Shown one piece after another: positions 18,731-29,454 of a stretch of 64,000 bases of DNA (the first letter of the stretch is position 1; each line of letters starts with the position of its first letter). Source of the stretch: Clostridiales bacterium (lineage in GTDB: Bacteria; Bacillota; Clostridia; Saccharofermentanales; Saccharofermentanaceae). The notes under the pieces were generated by a model. It saw nothing but the letters and a program-made list of their open reading frames with translations, searched no databases and was not told where the DNA came from. The translations under genes were made by a program, and so were the position numbers. The stretch is from the NCBI GenBank assembly GCA_017513085.1, contig JAFWDK010000010.1, positions 1 through 64,000 on the forward strand, written 5' to 3'.

Positions 18731-19666
18731 ATGAGTGAGATTAAACAAAGTGCTTTGGAACTGATCGGCAATACGCCGTTACTTCAATTGAATGGTTATT
18801 CCAAAAAGAGAGAGATTACAGAGGCAACCGTTCTTGCCAAACTTGAATACCTGAATCCGGCCGGATCCGTAAAAGACAGAATCGCACTGGCCATGATCGA
18901 GGATGCAGAGCAGAAGGGTCTTCTGAAGCCGGGCGCAACGATCATCGAGCCGACATCCGGTAACACAGGTATCGGACTTGCTGCAGTAGCTGCGGCGAAG
19001 GGTTATAAAGCAGTTCTGACACTCCCGGATACGATGAGTGTTGAAAGAAGAAACCTTCTTAAAGCTTACGGTGCTGAACTGGTTCTCACAGAGGGCGCTA
19101 AGGGCATGAAGGGTGCTATCGCCAAAGCTGAAGAACTGAATAAAGAGATCGAAGGATCGATCATCCTTGGACAGTTTGTCAATCCGGCAAACCCGAAGGT
19201 GCATAAGGAAACAACAGGACCGGAGATCTGGAAGCAGACAGACGGTAAAGTAGATATTTTCGTAGCAGGTGTTGGTACCGGCGGAACAATTACCGGTACA
19301 GGTGAATACCTGAAGTCACAGAATCCTAACGTAAAGGTCGTAGCTGTTGAGCCGGCTACAAGTGCCGTGCTTTCTACAGGCGTTGCCGGCGCACATAAGA
19401 TCCAGGGAATCGGCGCAGGTTTCGTACCGGATGTCCTGAATACCAAGGTATATGACGAGATCATCCCGATCGCAAATGAAGATGCTTTTGCAGAAGGTAA
19501 GGCATTTGCTCTTTCCGAGGGTATCCTGGTTGGTATCTCTTCCGGTGCAGCTCTTAAGGCAGCTGAGATCCTTGCTAAGCGTCCGGAGAATAAGGGCAAA
19601 GTTATCGTAGCGCTTCTTCCTGATTCCGGTGACCGTTATCTCTCTACACCTCTGTTCAATTCCTGA
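18731..19666 (+). CDS. cysK: Cysteine synthase A
   Basis: [33 protein letters not shown] and GDRYLST motifs; start at 18731 behind AAGGAGG. Confidence 0.95.
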
Positions 19667-19681
19667 CAGAAACAGAAGACG

Positions 19682-20554
19682 ATGAGTCATACTTATCAAG
19701 ACTTACAAAACTCCCACCCGTGTTTCGGGGGCCAGAAAAACAACGCCGGAAGGATCCACCTTCCGGTGAGCCCCGGGTGCAACATCGCTTGCCGATTCTG
19801 TGACCGGACCATAAACGATGTTGAGGAACGGCCGGGAGTGACATCCAAGGTGTTAAAGCCAGCTGAGTGCGAAGATATTTTGACAAAAGCACTGGAGATC
19901 TGTCCTGATATCAAAGTGGCCGGTATTGCCGGTCCCGGAGATACACTGGCATCCGATAATGCACTAGAGACCTTTCAAATCATCAAACAGAAATTTCCAC
20001 AGTTGATCAAGTGCATGAGTACGAACGGACTTCTTCTGAATGAAAGGGCGGAAGATGTGATCCGGGTAGGGATAGATTCGTTAACTGTGACCGTAAATGC
20101 AGTAGATCCTGAGATCGAATCAAAGCTTAATGCGTATATCATCTATCATGGTGAAAAGATCGAAGGCGTGGAGGGCGCGAAGATACTTATCCAAAACCAA
20201 CTGGAAGGTATCAGGAAAGTATCTTCCGCCAAAATCACGGTCAAGGTCAATACAGTGCTTGTTCCGGAAATCAACGGAGATCACATCGAAACGATCGCCA
20301 AGACGGTAAAAGAAGCAGGAGCGACGATCTACAATATCATTCCATTGATACCGCAGCATGAGTTGAAGGATGTAAAAGCCCCGACATGCGCACAGATCGA
20401 CGAAGCCCGAACCAAAGCATCGAAATACATCGATGTATTCAGACACTGCCAGCACTGCCGCGCGGATGCGGTAGGAGTACCGGGAAAGAGTGAATATGGT
20501 GATCGGATCTACCAGAGAAGACTCGGTGTGAAGGAGACATTTTCACATGGATAA
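19682..20554 (+). CDS. nifB: NifB-type radical SAM cofactor-assembly protein (SAM domain only)
   Basis: HPC, RIHLPV, CNIACRFC, ERPG, IAGPGD, STNG and CQHCRADAVG NifB motifs. Confidence 0.88.
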   Translation: MSHTYQDLQNSHPCFGGQKNNAGRIHLPVSPGCNIACRFCDRTINDVEERPGVTSKVLKPAECEDILTKALEICPDIKVAGIAGPGDTLASDNALETFQIIKQKFPQLIKCMSTNGLLLNERAEDVIRVGIDSLTVTVNAVDPEIESKLNAYIIYHGEKIEGVEGAKILIQNQLEGIRKVSSAKITVKVNTVLVPEINGDHIETIAKTVKEAGATIYNIIPLIPQHELKDVKAPTCAQIDEARTKASKYIDVFRHCQHCRADAVGVPGKSEYGDRIYQRRLGVKETFSHG

Positions 20555-20903
20555 AACTGAATACCGGATCGCTGTGGCCAGTAGCGACGGAATTGTGGTG
20601 AATAACCACTTTGGCCGTGCACGGACATTCTATATTTTTGCGCTCAAAAACGATGAAATCGAGCACCTTGAAACACGAGAACTTGAACCGGTATGTGAGA
20701 CGGGAAACCACGATGACGCAAGGCTGAAAGAGAATGTAGAGAGACTTTCGGACTGCACACATCTCCTGGCAGCACGTATCGGGAACGGGGCAAGAGCCGT
20801 TTTGGAAAGTTATGGAATCAGTTGCTATGAAATTCCGGGTGTGATCCCGGAGTCGATAGACAAACTTGTGACATATGAAAAAGTGAATGAATTATTTAAG
20901 TGA
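20547..20903 (+). CDS. NifX/NifB-C family cofactor-carrier protein
   Basis: [13 protein letters not shown] and DC...RIG motifs. Confidence 0.85.
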
Positions 20904-20920
20904 AAGAAGGATTTGGAAAA

Positions 20921-27637: not shown

Positions 27638-28927
27638 ATGTCTGAGATCATGGAAAATCCCAAGGGTGGATGTGTACTGGCCGGTATCAATTCGGTCCTT
27701 GGTGCCATTGAAAGAGTGTGCCCAATCTATCACAGCGGCCCCGGCTGCTGCATGCAGACATCTGCATCCGATCAAGGTCAGTCAGGACACAAATCATCCT
27801 GCTTTGTAAGCAGTGTGTCGATCCCTTCGAGTAATATGCTGGAGAAAGAAGTAGTCTTTGGAGGAACCAACAAGCTTCGTACGACGATCCAGGGTGCTAT
27901 CGATATTATCGATGCAGATGCATACTTTGTTCTGACAGGCTGTACGGCAGGTATTATCGGAGACGATATTGCCAGCATAACGAATGAATTTTCTGAAAAA
28001 GGTATCCCGGTCTATCCGATCGAAACACCTGGTTTTACCGGTGACAGCAATCTCGGATATGAGACGGTCTGGAATACATTCCTGGATAAGGTCATCGACA
28101 AAAATGTGCCGAAGGATGATAAACTCGTCAATATTTTCGGTATCATTCCGTATCATGACCCGTTCTGGAGCGGCACACTGGAAGAGATCGATCGTATCCT
28201 TTCCCGTCTGGGTCTTCGCGTCAATACGTTCTTTACTAAAGGACAGGGTATTGAAGATGTGAAGAAGAGTTCCGCTGCAGCGCTGAACATTATTGTTAAT
28301 CCGTGGCTTTTCAAAGGGCCTGCCGCAAAATACGAAAGCAAGTTCGGTGTACCGAGTCTTCGGATCCCAGGTTTGTTTGTCGGTGCGACAGATACGACCA
28401 GATTCGTCAGAAAGGTCGCAGAAACGCTGAATCTGGATAAAGATCTGGTGGAGTCGGTAATTGCTTCTGAAGAAAAATATGTATATCACTACCTTGAACA
28501 GTCTATTGGCGTATTGAGCTGGAAGCGCTTCGCTGTGGTGGCGGATGCGAATAATGCTATCGGATTTACCCGGTATCTTGCCAATGACTATAGTTTTACA
28601 CCGGTGCTGGTCATTGTGTCTGAACCGATCTTCCGTCCGGAAGATAAGGAGAGGATCATCAAGGAGATCACTGACCTTGAATATGCCCGCCCGCCGAAAG
28701 TTCTTTTCCTTACGGACCAGTATGAGATCAATAAAGCGATCCGTGAAGAAGAACAGGAGATCACGCTTCTTGTTGGTTCAAGTAACGACAGGGAGATCGC
28801 TCTGGAAAAAGATATCCAGTTCATCCTGGGAAGTTTCCCGATGAGCGAGCGTTTGATCTTCAACCGAACATATGCAGGTTATCGTGGCAGTCTGACGTTT
28901 ACGGAAGACATCTACGACAACAACTGA
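27638..28927 (+). CDS. Nitrogenase component 1 beta-like subunit K2
   Basis: ENPKGGCVLAG, HSGPGCC, EVVFGG, TGCTAGIIGDD and YAGYRG motifs; start at 27638 behind AAGGAG. Confidence 0.85.
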   Translation: MSEIMENPKGGCVLAGINSVLGAIERVCPIYHSGPGCCMQTSASDQGQSGHKSSCFVSSVSIPSSNMLEKEVVFGGTNKLRTTIQGAIDIIDADAYFVLTGCTAGIIGDDIASITNEFSEKGIPVYPIETPGFTGDSNLGYETVWNTFLDKVIDKNVPKDDKLVNIFGIIPYHDPFWSGTLEEIDRILSRLGLRVNTFFTKGQGIEDVKKSSAAALNIIVNPWLFKGPAAKYESKFGVPSLRIPGLFVGATDTTRFVRKVAETLNLDKDLVESVIASEEKYVYHYLEQSIGVLSWKRFAVVADANNAIGFTRYLANDYSFTPVLVIVSEPIFRPEDKERIIKEITDLEYARPPKVLFLTDQYEINKAIREEEQEITLLVGSSNDREIALEKDIQFILGSFPMSERLIFNRTYAGYRGSLTFTEDIYDNN

Positions 28928-28963
28928 CGGAACGATCCATCCGTCGTTTAATCTCACTTTGGG

Positions 28964-28993
28964 GAAAGAGACTGCTGTTCTGCAGTCTCTTTC
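28964..28993 (+). terminator. Hairpin (possible terminator) after K2
   Basis: GAAAGAGACTGC-tgttct-GCAGTCTCTTTC perfect 12-bp stem with a weak U tail. Confidence 0.55.
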
Positions 28994-29019
28994 TCTATGA
29001 TGTCTTTCGAGGTGAAATT

Positions 29020-29454
29020 ATGAGTGAATGTGAATATGAGATCATCGATTCGTGCGAAAACATCGATTTTGCAGAAGTCAGTGAACTGTTGAAGTTCTAT
29101 GGTCTTAGTGACCTGGACGGCGACACGCAGAAACGCGTCTTTCAGAACAGCTATGTGACGATTTTTGTGAAGAAAGAGAACGAACTGATCGGCGTGGGAA
29201 GGGCCATTTCAGACGGCATTACCCAAGGCGCGATCTATAACATTGCAGTGAAGGACGAATACAGGGGAAGAGGACTTGGAAAACGTATAGTAGATGAGAT
29301 CCTAACCAGGCTTGCCGGCTGCAACGTGGTCTTGTACACACATCCTAAACATATCGGACTATACGAACACTGGGGCTTCCGGAGAATGCGCACTTCGTAT
29401 GCCAAATTCGAAAGAGAAGAATACTTCGAACAGGAAGGCTTTTTCGTAGAGTAA
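29020..29454 (+). CDS. GNAT-family N-acetyltransferase
   Basis: LIGVGRAISDG, IAVKDEYRGRGLG (motif A) and LYEHWGF. Confidence 0.9.
   Translation: MSECEYEIIDSCENIDFAEVSELLKFYGLSDLDGDTQKRVFQNSYVTIFVKKENELIGVGRAISDGITQGAIYNIAVKDEYRGRGLGKRIVDEILTRLAGCNVVLYTHPKHIGLYEHWGFRRMRTSYAKFEREEYFEQEGFFVE

What the first reader, a model, noticed from the sequence alone, without database searches (positions are those of the whole stretch)
18731..29454. Sulfur-regulated nitrogenase-like operon with two DK pairs (Mar-like C-S reductase) in a Clostridia-like anaerobe
Seen: cysK-nifB-nifX-nifH-cysK2-D1-K1-nifX2-D2-K2-GNAT. All four subunits keep three P-cluster-type Cys and both D subunits keep a cofactor-type Cys. 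The canonical NifD MHSWDY His motif is absent. No nifV, Mo transporter, PII/nifI or amtB is in the window, and every neighbour is a Cys/Met gene. Known: group IV nitrogenase-like methylthio-alkane reductase (MarBHDK, Rhodospirillum rubrum) cleaves C-S bonds of dimethylsulfide and methylthioethanol, releasing methane or ethylene under sulfur limitation. Inference: a sulfur-scavenging reductase system, perhaps two isoenzymes with different substrates, and a possible non-archaeal source of hydrocarbon gas in anaerobic communities.
Basis: partly seen in the sequence, partly recalled or inferred. Interest (0 to 1): 0.86.

Follow-up and report, generated by a model that had tools for sequence, protein, structure and literature searches.

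The report
Two-enzyme nitrogenase-like sulfur-scavenging operon
A rumen-type Clostridia genome carries one cysteine-controlled operon that encodes a recently described methylthio-alkane reductase together with a second, uncharacterised nitrogenase-like enzyme whose metal-cofactor ligands look like those of true nitrogenase.

Summary
The gene order is real: leader-cysK-marB-nifX-marH-cysK2-D1-K1-nifX2-D2-K2, then a terminator. D1K1 is a Group IV-C methylthio-alkane reductase (MAR). It sits in a 100/100-supported clade with the R. rubrum-type MarD and keeps every MAR ligand, including the Arg-His hallmark. MAR in Clostridia was published in October 2026, so this part is a new member of a known kind.

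D2K2 is not a MAR isoenzyme by sequence. It is 29% identical to D1 and lies in a separate clade. It lacks the MarD Loop I Arg-His. Instead it has an invariant His (75 of 75 orthologues) in the column of the NifD, AnfD and NifE cofactor His. It is not NifD or NifE either. The module moves around within operons, and in four genomes it is the only Group IV system, so it is an independent enzyme of unknown substrate.

Sulfur control is supported by a conserved Met/Cys-rich leader ORF followed by a covarying terminator. No S-box or T-box was found. The host has two MetY genes but no match to sulfite reductase, CysD, ModA or (above cutoff) NifV. Enzyme activities and regulation are inferred, not shown.

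The parts
18562..18648 (+). Leader [31 protein letters not shown]: 28 aa with 7 Met and 6 Cys. An in-frame ATG at 18556 would give 30 aa. GGGAGG lies 8 nt upstream of 18562.
   Evidence: It is the only ORF in the 64-kb window that passes the Cys/Met filter. It is conserved upstream of cysK in 8 of 9 two-pair loci and 3 of 3 one-pair loci.
18656..18667 (+). Proposed antiterminator element GGTG...AACAAC. It is complementary both to the UGUUGU Cys codons in the leader and to the left arm of the terminator.
   Evidence: The pairing with the terminator's left arm appears in the minimum-energy fold of 7 of 8 leaders evaluated. It is weak, at -3.7 to -8.6 kcal/mol.
18678..18712 (+). Intrinsic-terminator-like hairpin (11 bp, 18678-18704) followed by a run of seven T (18706-18712), immediately upstream of the cysK RBS.
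   Evidence: On 10 sequences 93.5% of cells are paired, 3 pairs change on both sides, and the slid controls reach only 18-63%. Predicted energies are -12 to -16.6 kcal/mol.
18731..19666 (+). cysK1, cysteine synthase A
   Evidence: TIGR01139 scores 446.7 bits against a cutoff of 350.95. Orthologues at 87-96% identity head the operon in loci L003-L014.
19682..20554 (+). marB, a NifB-like radical SAM cofactor maturase without a fused NifX domain. It is the only NifB-like gene in the genome.
   Evidence: The nifB model matches positions 9-278 of 441 at 254.8 bits, below the 343.65 cutoff. Genome census. It is 39% identical to the NifB part of a clostridial NifN-B fusion.
20547..20903 (+). X1, a NifX/NafY-like protein (PF02579)
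20900..21769 (+). marH, the Fe-protein reductase, of the NifH-like type
   Evidence: TIGR01287 scores 464.5 bits against a cutoff of 394.35. It is 77% identical to a NifH encoded beside a verified NifD.
21806..22822 (+). cysK2, a CysK/CysM-family PLP enzyme of undetermined specificity
   Evidence: The best hit, cysKM, scores 271.9 bits against a cutoff of 344.15. It is 43% identical to cysK1.
22840..24306 (+). D1, a MarD-type (Group IV-C) catalytic subunit. Ligand residues: C52, C77, C143, C257, R413-H414, W180, F184.
24306..25604 (+). K1, a MarK-type subunit. Ligand residues: C12, C36, C95.
   Evidence: It scores 397 bits against R. rubrum MarK and 88 bits against the best NifK. Cys positions.
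25690..26154 (+). X2, a second NifX-like protein. It stays with D1K1 in operons that lack D2K2.
26182..27636 (+). D2, the D subunit of a separate Group IV clade. Key residues: C49, C74, C142, C260, His424 (in the NifD-type column), C180 (at the MarD Trp195 / NifD Gln191 position). The Loop I Arg-His is deleted.
27638..28927 (+). K2, the partner of D2. Ligand residues: C12, C37, C102.
   Evidence: It is 36% identical to K1.
28960..28997 (+). Terminator-like hairpin (16 bp) that marks the probable end of the operon
8760..18426 (+). Upstream sulfur genes: metB/C-like 8760-9911, PatB C-S lyase 9925-11112, cysE 11131-12081, LysR regulator 12122-13024, Ssu/NMT1-type ABC transporter 13177-16117, and DUF4418 with an FtsX-like permease and ABC ATPase 16171-18426
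   Evidence: The transporter block is syntenic in related loci.

Best explanation
One operon encodes two different nitrogenase-like reductases. They share a single Fe-protein (MarH), a single cofactor maturase (MarB) and NifX-like carriers.

(1) D1K1 with MarH and MarB is a Group IV-C methylthio-alkane reductase. By analogy with the characterised enzyme, ATP-driven electrons pass from MarH through a P-cluster to an [Fe8S9C]-type cluster held by D1 Cys257 and His414. The enzyme cleaves C-S bonds of dimethylsulfide, ethylmethylsulfide or (2-methylthio)ethanol, giving methanethiol plus methane, ethane or ethylene. The host's two MetY enzymes can then make methionine from the methanethiol. CysK1, CysK2 and the upstream MetB/C-like, PatB and CysE enzymes would link methionine and cysteine pools.

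(2) D2K2 is a separate, self-sufficient Group IV enzyme of unknown substrate. It keeps a P-cluster site. It holds its large cluster through Cys260 and a nitrogenase-position His424, not the MAR Loop I His, and it has an invariant Cys where MarD has Trp195. It most probably reduces a different, imported organosulfur compound.

(3) Transcription is gated by a ribosome-mediated attenuator. When charged Cys-tRNA or Met-tRNA is scarce, ribosomes stall in the Met/Cys-rich leader. The AACAAC element is then free to pair with the terminator's left arm, and RNA polymerase reads through.

SHOWN: gene content, ligand patterns, clade placements, synteny, stand-alone occurrence of D2K2, and conservation and covariation of the leader and terminator. 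INFERRED: all enzyme activities, the sharing of MarH and MarB by both pairs, and the attenuation mechanism.
For: D1K1 IS MAR-TYPE.
- The best solved-structure hits are the R. rubrum MarD and MarK chains of 9FMG and 9D9U. D1 scores 300 bits against 130 for the best NifD; K1 scores 397 against 88. The identity of 9FMG comes from passages of PMC12552129.
- D1 keeps C66, C91, C158, C270, R428-H429, W195 and F199.
- D1 lies in a 21-row clade with 100/100 support that also holds P0143. P0143 scores 616 bits against 9fmg_A.
- Across the 12 rows of the D1 and P0143 subclades, Arg is present in 12 of 12. His is in the column in 9 of 12 and one position later in the other 3.

D2K2 IS DISTINCT.
- D2 is 29% identical to D1.
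- D2 lies in a separate clade whose 7-row core has 100/99 support.
- The Loop I Arg-His is absent in 6 of 6 clade representatives and in 75 of 75 orthologues.
- His424 is kept in 75 of 75, Cys260 in 75 of 75 and Cys180 in 73 of 75.
- His424 aligns with the cofactor His of NCBIfam-verified NifD, AnfD and NifE.

D2K2 IS INDEPENDENT.
- The module's position varies among the 80 named loci.
- Of 47 loci with at least 9 kb upstream and 6 kb downstream, 15 have no D1-type gene.
- In 4 of 5 whole genomes searched, the only hit to D1 is the D2 gene itself.
- Three D1-only operons end after X2.

SHARED PARTS. The genome has one NifB-like gene. The only NifH-like gene near either pair is marH.

REGULATION. 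Non-homologous poly-Cys leaders head the same operon type in L039 and in 11 Lacrimispora/Hungatella/Clostridium-group loci. No Rfam family matched anywhere in 7000-36500 even at E up to 1.

HOST. Two MetY genes score above cutoff. There is no match to NIR_SIR (PF01077) or CysD.

LITERATURE. The mBio 2026 paper reports that functional MAR occurs in Clostridia and only in Group IV-C (sections read).
Against: - No activity, expression or regulation data exist for this locus. No RNA run was usable.
- The predicted antiterminator is much weaker than the terminator (-3.7 to -8.6 against -12 to -16.6 kcal/mol). It was absent from the minimum-energy fold of 1 of 8 leaders (L008), and my script mis-anchored two more leaders, L003 and L006.
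- One two-pair locus (L005) has no leader at all.
- The related sequences are close kin, so the shuffle controls overstate significance.
- The role of His424 rests on a 7-sequence alignment and not on a structure. His424 is not kept in four of the five more distant clade representatives (P0132, P0138, P0126, P0160).
- The authors of the mBio paper themselves say that lack of MAR activity in non-IV-C systems expressed in R. rubrum could be a host artefact. D2K2 could therefore still act on volatile sulfur compounds.
- My trees use unnamed 50%-identity cluster representatives. Only the MAR clade is anchored to a characterised protein.
Confidence: 0.6

Rival explanations
1. Both DK pairs are methylthio-alkane reductase isoenzymes with different volatile-sulfur substrate ranges. 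This is the first reader's view, by analogy with Mar1 and Mar2 of Rhodopseudomonas palustris.
For: The bioRxiv preprint 10.64898/2026.08.20.746119 (abstract and section 8) shows two Mar homologues with different substrates in one organism. D2K2 shares an operon, a leader, MarH and MarB with D1K1. It keeps the P-cluster Cys and the cofactor Cys. MarD is its best solved-structure hit at 236 bits.
Against: D2 lies outside the MAR clade. It lacks the Arg428-His429 pair that the Nat Catal paper suggests might be a MAR hallmark. Trp195 is replaced by Cys. R. palustris Mar2 is described as a recent duplication within Rhodopseudomonas, whereas D1 and D2 are only 29% identical. In the mBio screen, the tested non-IV-C systems (13 of 43 IV-A, 5 of 9 IV-D, 11 of 32 IV-E, 3 of 8 IV-F) fell below the activity cutoff with MT-EtOH and EMS, and with DMS in all cases but one (IV-A Clostridium magnum).
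Confidence: 0.2
2. D2K2 is a NifEN-like scaffold that matures or stores the cofactor for D1K1 and is not an enzyme.
For: Public records name D2 relatives 'NifE'. nifE is D2's top NCBIfam hit, though at 168.6 bits against a cutoff of 505. His424 also aligns with a His in a verified NifE. In this operon a NifX-like gene lies just upstream of D2.
Against: D2K2 with B and H occurs in 4 whole genomes that have no D1-type gene. Three operons have D1K1 and X2 without D2K2. D2 is not in the NifD/AnfD/NifE clade. Both D2 and K2 keep all three P-cluster Cys. [quoted passage not shown]
Confidence: 0.07
3. The system, or D2K2 within it, fixes nitrogen, like the proposed Group IV-A Nfa enzymes.
For: D2 has a Cys plus His pair at the NifD positions. 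marH is 77% identical to a true NifH and passes the nifH equivalog cutoff. The Chem Rev review reports N2 fixation claims for Group IV-A systems.
Against: D2 has Cys and Phe where NifD has Gln191 and His195 (residue roles from passages of PMC12552129). No nifV match is above cutoff, there is no ModA match, and PII and AmtB lie on another contig. The leader senses Cys and Met, not nitrogen. The neighbours are sulfur genes. The tree separates D2 from NifD, AnfD and NifE.
Confidence: 0.03
4. The Cys-rich mini-ORF encodes a ribosomally made peptide natural-product precursor and is not a regulatory leader.
For: It has six Cys in 28 residues. A LanC-like gene lies at 29527-30954 and a radical SAM/SPASM gene at 7523-8614.
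Against: It always sits directly upstream of the first operon gene and is followed by a covarying terminator. Unrelated poly-Cys ORFs occupy the same position in other lineages. The LanC-like gene accompanies only 5 of 79 loci. Cys-codon leader attenuators are documented in mycobacteria and upstream of Rhodobacterales cysS.
Confidence: 0.05

Closest known systems
Methylthio-alkane reductase MarBHDK (Group IV-C NFL) of Rhodospirillum rubrum; structures 9FMG and 9D9U
   Same: D1K1, marH and marB form the same four-gene set. All six P-cluster Cys are kept, as are Cys270, Arg428-His429, Trp195 and Phe199. D1 lies in the same well-supported clade. The context is sulfur metabolism and the host has MetY.
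   Different: The Fe protein is NifH-like (77% identical to a true NifH), not of the R. rubrum MarH type. MarD Cys73 is Gly in D1. Two cysK paralogues are embedded in the operon. Control appears to be by a Cys/Met leader attenuator, whereas R. rubrum uses the LysR regulator SalR (three LysR genes are present in the window). The operon also carries a second DK pair.
Clostridial Group IV-C MAR systems shown to be functional in mBio 2026 (for example Clostridium sp. DL-VIII, Heliophilum fasciatum, Ruminiclostridium)
   Same: Same bacterial class, same clade and same predicted role. Those with NifH-like (Group I) NflH proteins needed R. rubrum MarBH to show activity in the heterologous host.
   Different: I could not check whether this exact lineage was among the 20 of 49 Group IV-C systems tested, because the figures and supplements were not visible. 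The text I read does not discuss a tandem second DK pair.
Group IV NFL clades of unknown function (IV-D and IV-E in the 2020 nomenclature)
   Same: D2K2 is a Group IV-like DK pair. It is co-located with sulfur genes and NifB/NifH homologues, and it lies outside IV-C, outside the Heliophilum/Syntrophobotulus clade B3, and outside NifD/NifE.
   Different: The clade letter cannot be assigned, because the defining trees are in figures and supplements I could not see. The NifD-position His, the Cys at the Trp195 position, and the stand-alone occurrence of D2K2 are not mentioned in the text I read.
R. palustris Mar1 and Mar2 isoenzymes
   Same: One organism carries two Mar-like DK pairs that are induced by sulfur limitation.
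   Different: Mar2 is described as a recent within-genus duplicate and lies at a separate locus. D1 and D2 are 29% identical, belong to different clades, and sit in one operon.
Cys-codon leader attenuators (mycobacterial polycysteine short ORFs; the Rhodobacterales cysS upstream-ORF motif)
   Same: A short ORF rich in Cys codons lies upstream of sulfur-metabolism genes, with RNA structure and, in the cysS case, a U-run terminator.
   Different: This one occurs in Clostridia, mixes Met and Cys codons, controls a nitrogenase-like operon, and has its own RBS. The mycobacterial examples are leaderless and act on translation.

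Membership tests
Group IV-C methylthio-alkane reductase (tested for D1K1) | The marB, marH, marD, marK minimal gene set in one cluster | tested here: met
Group IV-C methylthio-alkane reductase (tested for D1K1) | Six P-cluster Cys (MarD 66, 91, 158; MarK 32, 56, 121) | tested here: met
   D1 C52, C77, C143. 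K1 C12, C36, C95, mapped through the K1-K2 alignment and the K2-MarK alignment.
Group IV-C methylthio-alkane reductase (tested for D1K1) | Cofactor ligands Cys270 and Loop I His429, with Arg428 | tested here: met
   D1 C257 and R413-H414
Group IV-C methylthio-alkane reductase (tested for D1K1) | NflD phylogeny: same clade as R. rubrum MarD | tested here: met
   A 21-row clade at 100/100 that contains P0143, which scores 616 bits against 9fmg_A. The published clade boundaries were not visible to me.
Group IV-C methylthio-alkane reductase (tested for D1K1) | Release of methane, ethane or ethylene from DMS, EMS or MT-EtOH | not testable with these tools
   Needs expression and gas chromatography
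Group IV-C methylthio-alkane reductase (tested for D2K2) | Loop I Arg428-His429 | tested here: not met
   A four-residue deletion covers this site. The pair is absent in 75 of 75 orthologues.
Group IV-C methylthio-alkane reductase (tested for D2K2) | Same clade as R. rubrum MarD | tested here: not met
   D2 lies in a separate clade
Group IV-C methylthio-alkane reductase (tested for D2K2) | Six P-cluster Cys and Cys270 | tested here: met
Canonical nitrogenase NifDK/AnfDK or the NifEN scaffold (tested for D1, K1, D2, K2) | Score above the NCBIfam equivalog cutoffs | tested here: not met
   All four are far below cutoff. A verified NifD, AnfD and NifE score 712, 1100 and 641 bits.
Canonical nitrogenase NifDK/AnfDK or the NifEN scaffold (tested for D1, K1, D2, K2) | Clade membership with NifD, AnfD and NifE | tested here: not met
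   NifD, AnfD and NifE form their own 100/100 clade apart from D1 and D2
Canonical nitrogenase NifDK/AnfDK or the NifEN scaffold (tested for D1, K1, D2, K2) | Catalytic Gln191 and His195, and the accessory genes nifEN and nifV | tested here: not met
   D2 has Cys and Phe at those positions; D1 has Trp and Phe. The genome has no canonical nifEN and no nifV above cutoff.
Ribosome-mediated leader-peptide transcription attenuator | A short ORF with an RBS, enriched in codons of the regulating amino acids | tested here: met
   13 of 28 codons are Met or Cys. It is the only such ORF in 64 kb.
Ribosome-mediated leader-peptide transcription attenuator | An intrinsic terminator between the leader and the first gene, conserved with covariation | tested here: met
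Ribosome-mediated leader-peptide transcription attenuator | A mutually exclusive antiterminator whose formation depends on ribosome position | tested here: inconclusive
   It was present in the minimum-energy fold of 7 of 8 leaders evaluated, but it is weak. Two leaders were not evaluated.
Ribosome-mediated leader-peptide transcription attenuator | Readthrough increases under Cys or Met starvation | not testable with these tools
   No usable RNA data

The most novel reading that the evidence does not exclude
D2K2 defines a widespread, functionally new nitrogenase-like enzyme. It occurs in rumen, gut and soil Clostridia, in Negativicutes, and in termite-gut spirochaete MAGs. It holds an L-cluster-type cofactor with nitrogenase-style Cys plus Loop II His ligation. 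It does not act on volatile sulfides. Instead it acts on a compound derived from an imported sulfur amino acid, for example a 2-oxo or 2-hydroxy acid made from S-methylcysteine or a related thioether by the co-located aminotransferase and Ldh_2 or Fe-ADH dehydrogenases, and it releases a thiol or sulfide. The whole regulon would be governed by poly-Cys leader peptides.
Probability: 0.22. Interest if true: 0.75.

Novelty: new member of a known kind. Interest (0 to 1): 0.45.

Why it matters
The MAR half confirms that rumen-type Clostridia carry this C-S-cleaving, hydrocarbon-releasing enzyme. That matters for the rumen and gut sulfur and methane budgets, but it has already been published.

The more useful output concerns the Group IV nitrogenase-like clades of unknown function, which the 2026 review lists as an open problem. 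This work gives that problem concrete handles:
- a sequence signature for one clade: PTTHVLDxKRPT with an invariant His at the NifD position, a Cys at the Trp195 position, and no Loop I Arg-His;
- named, cultured hosts in which this enzyme is the only Group IV system (Eubacterium ruminantium FB3002, Lachnospiraceae bacteria C6A11 and MC2017);
- recurrent neighbours that narrow the substrate search: a polar-amino-acid ABC importer, an aminotransferase, and Ldh_2 and Fe-ADH dehydrogenases;
- a simple predicted on-switch, cysteine or methionine starvation acting through a leader peptide.

The finding also shows that the two known ways of anchoring the large cofactor (MAR Loop I His and nitrogenase Loop II His) can coexist in one operon that draws on one NifB.

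Tried and rejected
- Rfam at gathering thresholds on the whole window, and at E up to 1 on 7000-36500: 0 matches, so no S-box, T-box or known leader family.
- Clade letter for D2. I looked for organism lists for Groups IV-D and IV-E in the mBio paper, the Chem Rev review and the whole library. The labels exist only in figures and supplements that I could not see, so no letter was assigned.
- Expression: the look-up of sequencing runs listed 4 runs, none on record as RNA and all kept as contigs. That is 'no RNA holder listed'.
- An 'Ssu-type ABC ATPase next to D2' was my first reading. Annotation showed this was generic ABC-ATPase similarity. In E. ruminantium the transporter is cystine/polar-amino-acid type, so I dropped the Ssu reading.
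- A sulfite-releasing (isethionate-reductase-like) role for D2K2 in this host was considered. I judged it unlikely because the genome has no NIR_SIR-domain match. It is not excluded in other hosts.
- Literature search for 'nitrogenase-like' with 'Lachnospiraceae' and 'cysteine synthase': 0 papers. Searches for Cys leader peptides in Clostridia or NFL operons found only the actinobacterial, mycobacterial and Rhodobacterales cases. 'Not described for NFL operons' therefore rests on these three searches of the held library only.
- I did not run structure prediction, complex prediction, the protein atlas, or an AU topology test.
- North et al. 2020 (Science) is cited only through other papers. I did not see it.

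Full report
WHAT IS THERE. On the + strand between 18.5 and 29.0 kb the window carries, in order:
- a small leader ORF, 18562-18648;
- a terminator-like hairpin, 18678-18712;
- cysK1, 18731-19666;
- a NifB-like radical SAM gene without a NifX domain (marB), 19682-20554;
- a NifX-like gene (X1), 20547-20903;
- a NifH gene (marH), 20900-21769;
- a second CysK-family gene (cysK2), 21806-22822;
- D1, 22840-24306, and K1, 24306-25604;
- a second NifX-like gene (X2), 25690-26154;
- D2, 26182-27636, and K2, 27638-28927;
- a 16-bp terminator-like hairpin, 28960-28997.

The GNAT gene (29020-29454) follows that hairpin and is replaced by other genes in related loci. Upstream lie metB/C-like, patB, cysE, a LysR regulator, an Ssu/NMT1-type ABC transporter, and a block of DUF4418, an FtsX-like permease and an ABC ATPase. 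Downstream lie a LanC-like gene, a second GNAT, a LysR regulator, metE and metF. Sulfur genes dominate the neighbourhood but are not the only neighbours.

NOT A NITROGENASE. None of D1, K1, D2 or K2 approaches an NCBIfam nitrogenase cutoff. A NifD, an AnfD and a NifE that do pass their cutoffs (712, 1100 and 641 bits) form their own 100/100 clade in a 60-row maximum-likelihood tree, well away from D1 and D2. The 99.4%-complete genome has no nifV above cutoff and no ModA match. Its single AmtB and PII matches lie on another contig. It has only one NifB-like gene, the one in this operon.

D1K1 IS A MAR-CLADE ENZYME. The best solved-structure matches of D1 and K1 are chains of 9FMG and 9D9U: 300 bits against 130 for the best NifD, and 397 bits against 88 for the best NifK. 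Passages of the Nat Catal 2025 paper identify 9FMG as the R. rubrum MarDK2H2 complex and give the ligand residues. D1 keeps every one of them: the three P-cluster Cys, Cys270, the Loop I Arg428-His429 pair that the authors suggest might be a MAR hallmark, and Trp195 and Phe199. K1 keeps the three MarK Cys.

For the phylogeny I ran a profile search with D1 plus D2 against 1.84 billion cluster representatives. It found 2370 hits at E up to 0.001, and the best 150 were listed. I built a quick tree from the 96 of those 150 that are 420-570 residues long. I then built careful trees from 45 of them, two named proteins, and proteins translated from fetched loci (56 and 60 rows). D1 falls in a 21-row clade with 100/99 to 100/100 support. 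That clade includes P0143, which scores 616 bits against R. rubrum MarD. The mBio 2026 paper (abstract and sections 3, 5, 7 and 9 read) reports functional MAR enzymes across Clostridia and other classes, and only in Group IV-C. D1K1 with marH and marB is therefore a new member of a published kind.

D2K2 IS SOMETHING ELSE. D2 is 29% identical to D1 and K2 is 36% identical to K1. D2 sits in a different clade, whose 7-row core has 100/99 support. That clade is also distinct from the clade holding Heliophilum fasciatum and Syntrophobotulus proteins, and from a methanogen-rich clade. D2 keeps the three P-cluster Cys and the cofactor Cys, and K2 keeps its three Cys. However, a four-residue deletion removes exactly the Loop I Arg-His. 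Among 75 full-length orthologues of 65-95% identity taken from named genomes:
- the short loop is invariant;
- His424, in PTTHVLDxKRPT, is present in 75 of 75;
- Cys260 is present in 75 of 75;
- Cys180, at the MarD Trp195 position, is present in 73 of 75.

In an alignment anchored by KPD, G(I/V)P and G(Y/F)xG, His424 falls in the column of the cofactor His of the verified NifD (HSYDY), AnfD and NifE. D1 and the MarD-type representative have Tyr or Val in that column. D2 therefore seems to hold its large cluster in the nitrogenase manner and D1 in the MAR manner. D2 still lacks the NifD Gln191 and His195 equivalents, having Cys and Phe. Two caveats apply. His424 is not kept in four of the five more distant representatives of the clade. 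And the ligand role is inferred from alignment only.

D2K2 IS AN INDEPENDENT, MOBILE MODULE. In the window's own taxonomic family, 56 of 142 genomes have a D-type match at E up to 1e-40:
- 22 genomes carry a D2 orthologue at 86% identity or more. In 17 of them a D1-type gene lies about 3.3 kb upstream on the same contig, in 2 it is on another contig, and in 3 fragmented assemblies it was not found.
- 1 further genome has only a 78-residue D2 fragment.
- 4 genomes have only a D1-type gene.
- About 29 genomes have only a third type, which the tree places inside the MAR clade.

I chose 16 example loci to compare. Nine have both pairs, three end after X2 with no D2K2, and four have the rearranged third type. 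In the 80 best named-genome loci (177 pattern matches, 157 confirmed relatives, best 80 kept) the module's position varies. It follows X2 in the rumen MAGs, as in the window. It sits between X1 and marH in Lacrimispora, Hungatella and some Clostridium. It is accompanied only by marB and marH in Eubacterium ruminantium, Lachnospiraceae C6A11 and MC2017, and some MAGs. Of 47 loci with at least 9 kb upstream and 6 kb downstream, 32 contain a D1-type gene and 15 do not. Whole-genome searches of five such hosts found no D1-type gene in four of them. This rules out a dedicated NifEN-like scaffold role and shows that D2K2 with B and H works on its own.

CLUES TO THE D2K2 SUBSTRATE. Gene families that recur near D2 in the 79 loci analysed are a polar-amino-acid-type ABC importer (binding protein in 40 loci, paired permeases in 30, ATPase in 36), a class I/II aminotransferase (13), Fe-ADH (12), MetB/C-type enzymes (11), SulP (11), PatB, and Ldh_2 (7). 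The stand-alone E. ruminantium locus reads: PatB, Fe-ADH, HisC-like aminotransferase, a cystine-type ABC importer, an Ldh_2 dehydrogenase, then D2-K2-B-H. This suggests an imported sulfur amino acid that is converted to an oxo or hydroxy acid before reductive cleavage. It does not show it.

REGULATION. No riboswitch or T-box was detected. Instead, the 300-nt gap before cysK1 holds an ORF encoding [28 protein letters not shown], with a good RBS, followed by an 11-bp hairpin and seven T. A filter requiring at least 4 Cys and at least 30% Cys plus Met finds only this ORF in the 64-kb window, and none in two unrelated loci totalling 34 kb. The ORF is conserved upstream of cysK1 in 8 of 9 two-pair loci (not in L005). 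It is also conserved in all 3 one-pair loci, though one of them has only 2 Cys and was found by eye.

On a 10-sequence alignment the terminator helix has 93.5% of cells paired, against 18-63% when the partners are slid. Three pairs change on both sides, and one group of loci has an entirely different sequence forming the same hairpin. These sequences are close relatives, so the shuffle statistics overstate the case. An AACAAC element between the leader and the terminator is complementary both to the UGUUGU Cys codons and to the terminator's GUUGUU. It pairs with the terminator's left arm in the minimum-energy fold of 7 of 8 leaders evaluated. That helix is weak, at -3.7 to -8.6 kcal/mol against -12 to -16.6 for the terminator, and two leaders were mis-anchored by my script. 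In other lineages, unrelated poly-Cys ORFs head the same operon type: MSCCCK... or MNCCCCK... in 11 Lacrimispora-group loci, and MRRFYVNCCCCCVMY in L039. Cys-codon leaders are documented in mycobacteria (abstract seen) and upstream of Rhodobacterales cysS (passage seen). My three library searches found none described for NFL operons or Clostridia.

HOST LOGIC. The genome has two MetY-type O-acetylhomoserine sulfhydrylases above cutoff. It has no match to the sulfite-reductase domain or to CysD. By these markers it lacks assimilatory sulfate reduction, so it depends on reduced or organic sulfur, and it has the enzyme that converts methanethiol into methionine. marH is 77% identical to a true clostridial NifH. 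That places it with the NifH-like NflH proteins which, according to the mBio paper, worked poorly in R. rubrum unless they were replaced. This matters for any heterologous test.

VERDICT. 'Two isoenzymes' is not supported. The second pair belongs to a different clade of unknown function with a nitrogenase-style His, and it can stand alone. The clade letter (IV-D or IV-E) could not be assigned because the defining trees were not visible. All activities and the attenuation mechanism remain inferences.

Noticed in passing
Own genome C5:245414-248264 (locus L001, 7052-10271) and C23:92927-95750 (locus L002, 6559-9757): There are two further nitrogenase-like systems. Each has a NifH-like gene (below the nifH and CfbC cutoffs) and two short divergent D/K-like genes, embedded in a BtuC/FecCD-type ABC importer operon with a heme/siderophore-type binding protein. 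L002 also has a HypB-like GTPase. Neither locus has a NifB. They may correspond to the tetrapyrrole-linked Group VI type mentioned in the 2026 review.
   Followed up: partly
window 29527-30954: A stand-alone LanC-like (lanthionine cyclase domain) protein lies between two GNAT genes, just downstream of the operon. It accompanies the operon in only 5 of 79 related loci.
   Followed up: partly
window 7188-8614: A 112-aa ORF with no Pfam hit is followed by a radical SAM/SPASM protein (TIGR04133-like, below cutoff), upstream of the metB/C-patB-cysE block. This could be a peptide-maturation pair.
   Followed up: no
Loci L015-L018 (genomes G025, G085, G008, G042): A third MAR-clade type (38-41% identical to D1) occurs with rearranged gene order (D-K-H-X-B or B-X-H-D-K). 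It is the only D-type gene in about 29 of 142 genomes of the family.
   Followed up: partly
Genome G146 (Candidatus Clostridium eludens; L069, L099-L102): One genome gives 17 D-like matches, including a canonical nifHDKE-NB cluster, an AnfD, and many Group IV paralogues. This is an unusually rich collection of nitrogenase-family enzymes.
   Followed up: partly
Representatives P0167, P0177, P0179, P0189, P0215, P0225, P0226 (trees): A long-branch subclade inside the MAR clade has lost the cofactor Cys270 in 6 of 7 rows (replaced by Ser, His or Gly). It keeps the P-cluster Cys (one row has also lost Cys66) and keeps a His in Loop I in 6 of 7 rows. It may be a different enzyme nested within IV-C.
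   Followed up: no
L054, L058, L084, L085 (records titled Succinivibrio, Bacteroidaceae, Dehalococcoidia, Polyangiaceae): D2 orthologues of 70-75% identity appear in bins labelled with distant phyla. This is either horizontal transfer or mis-binned contigs.
   Followed up: no
L053 3825-5579 and 10 related Lacrimispora-group loci: A FokI-like restriction endonuclease gene and a DUF4317 gene recur upstream of the NFL operon in this group.
   Followed up: no
Own genome C23:39181-40884: The AmtB and PII matches lie in one 617-aa open frame, which suggests a fused AmtB-GlnK protein.
   Followed up: no
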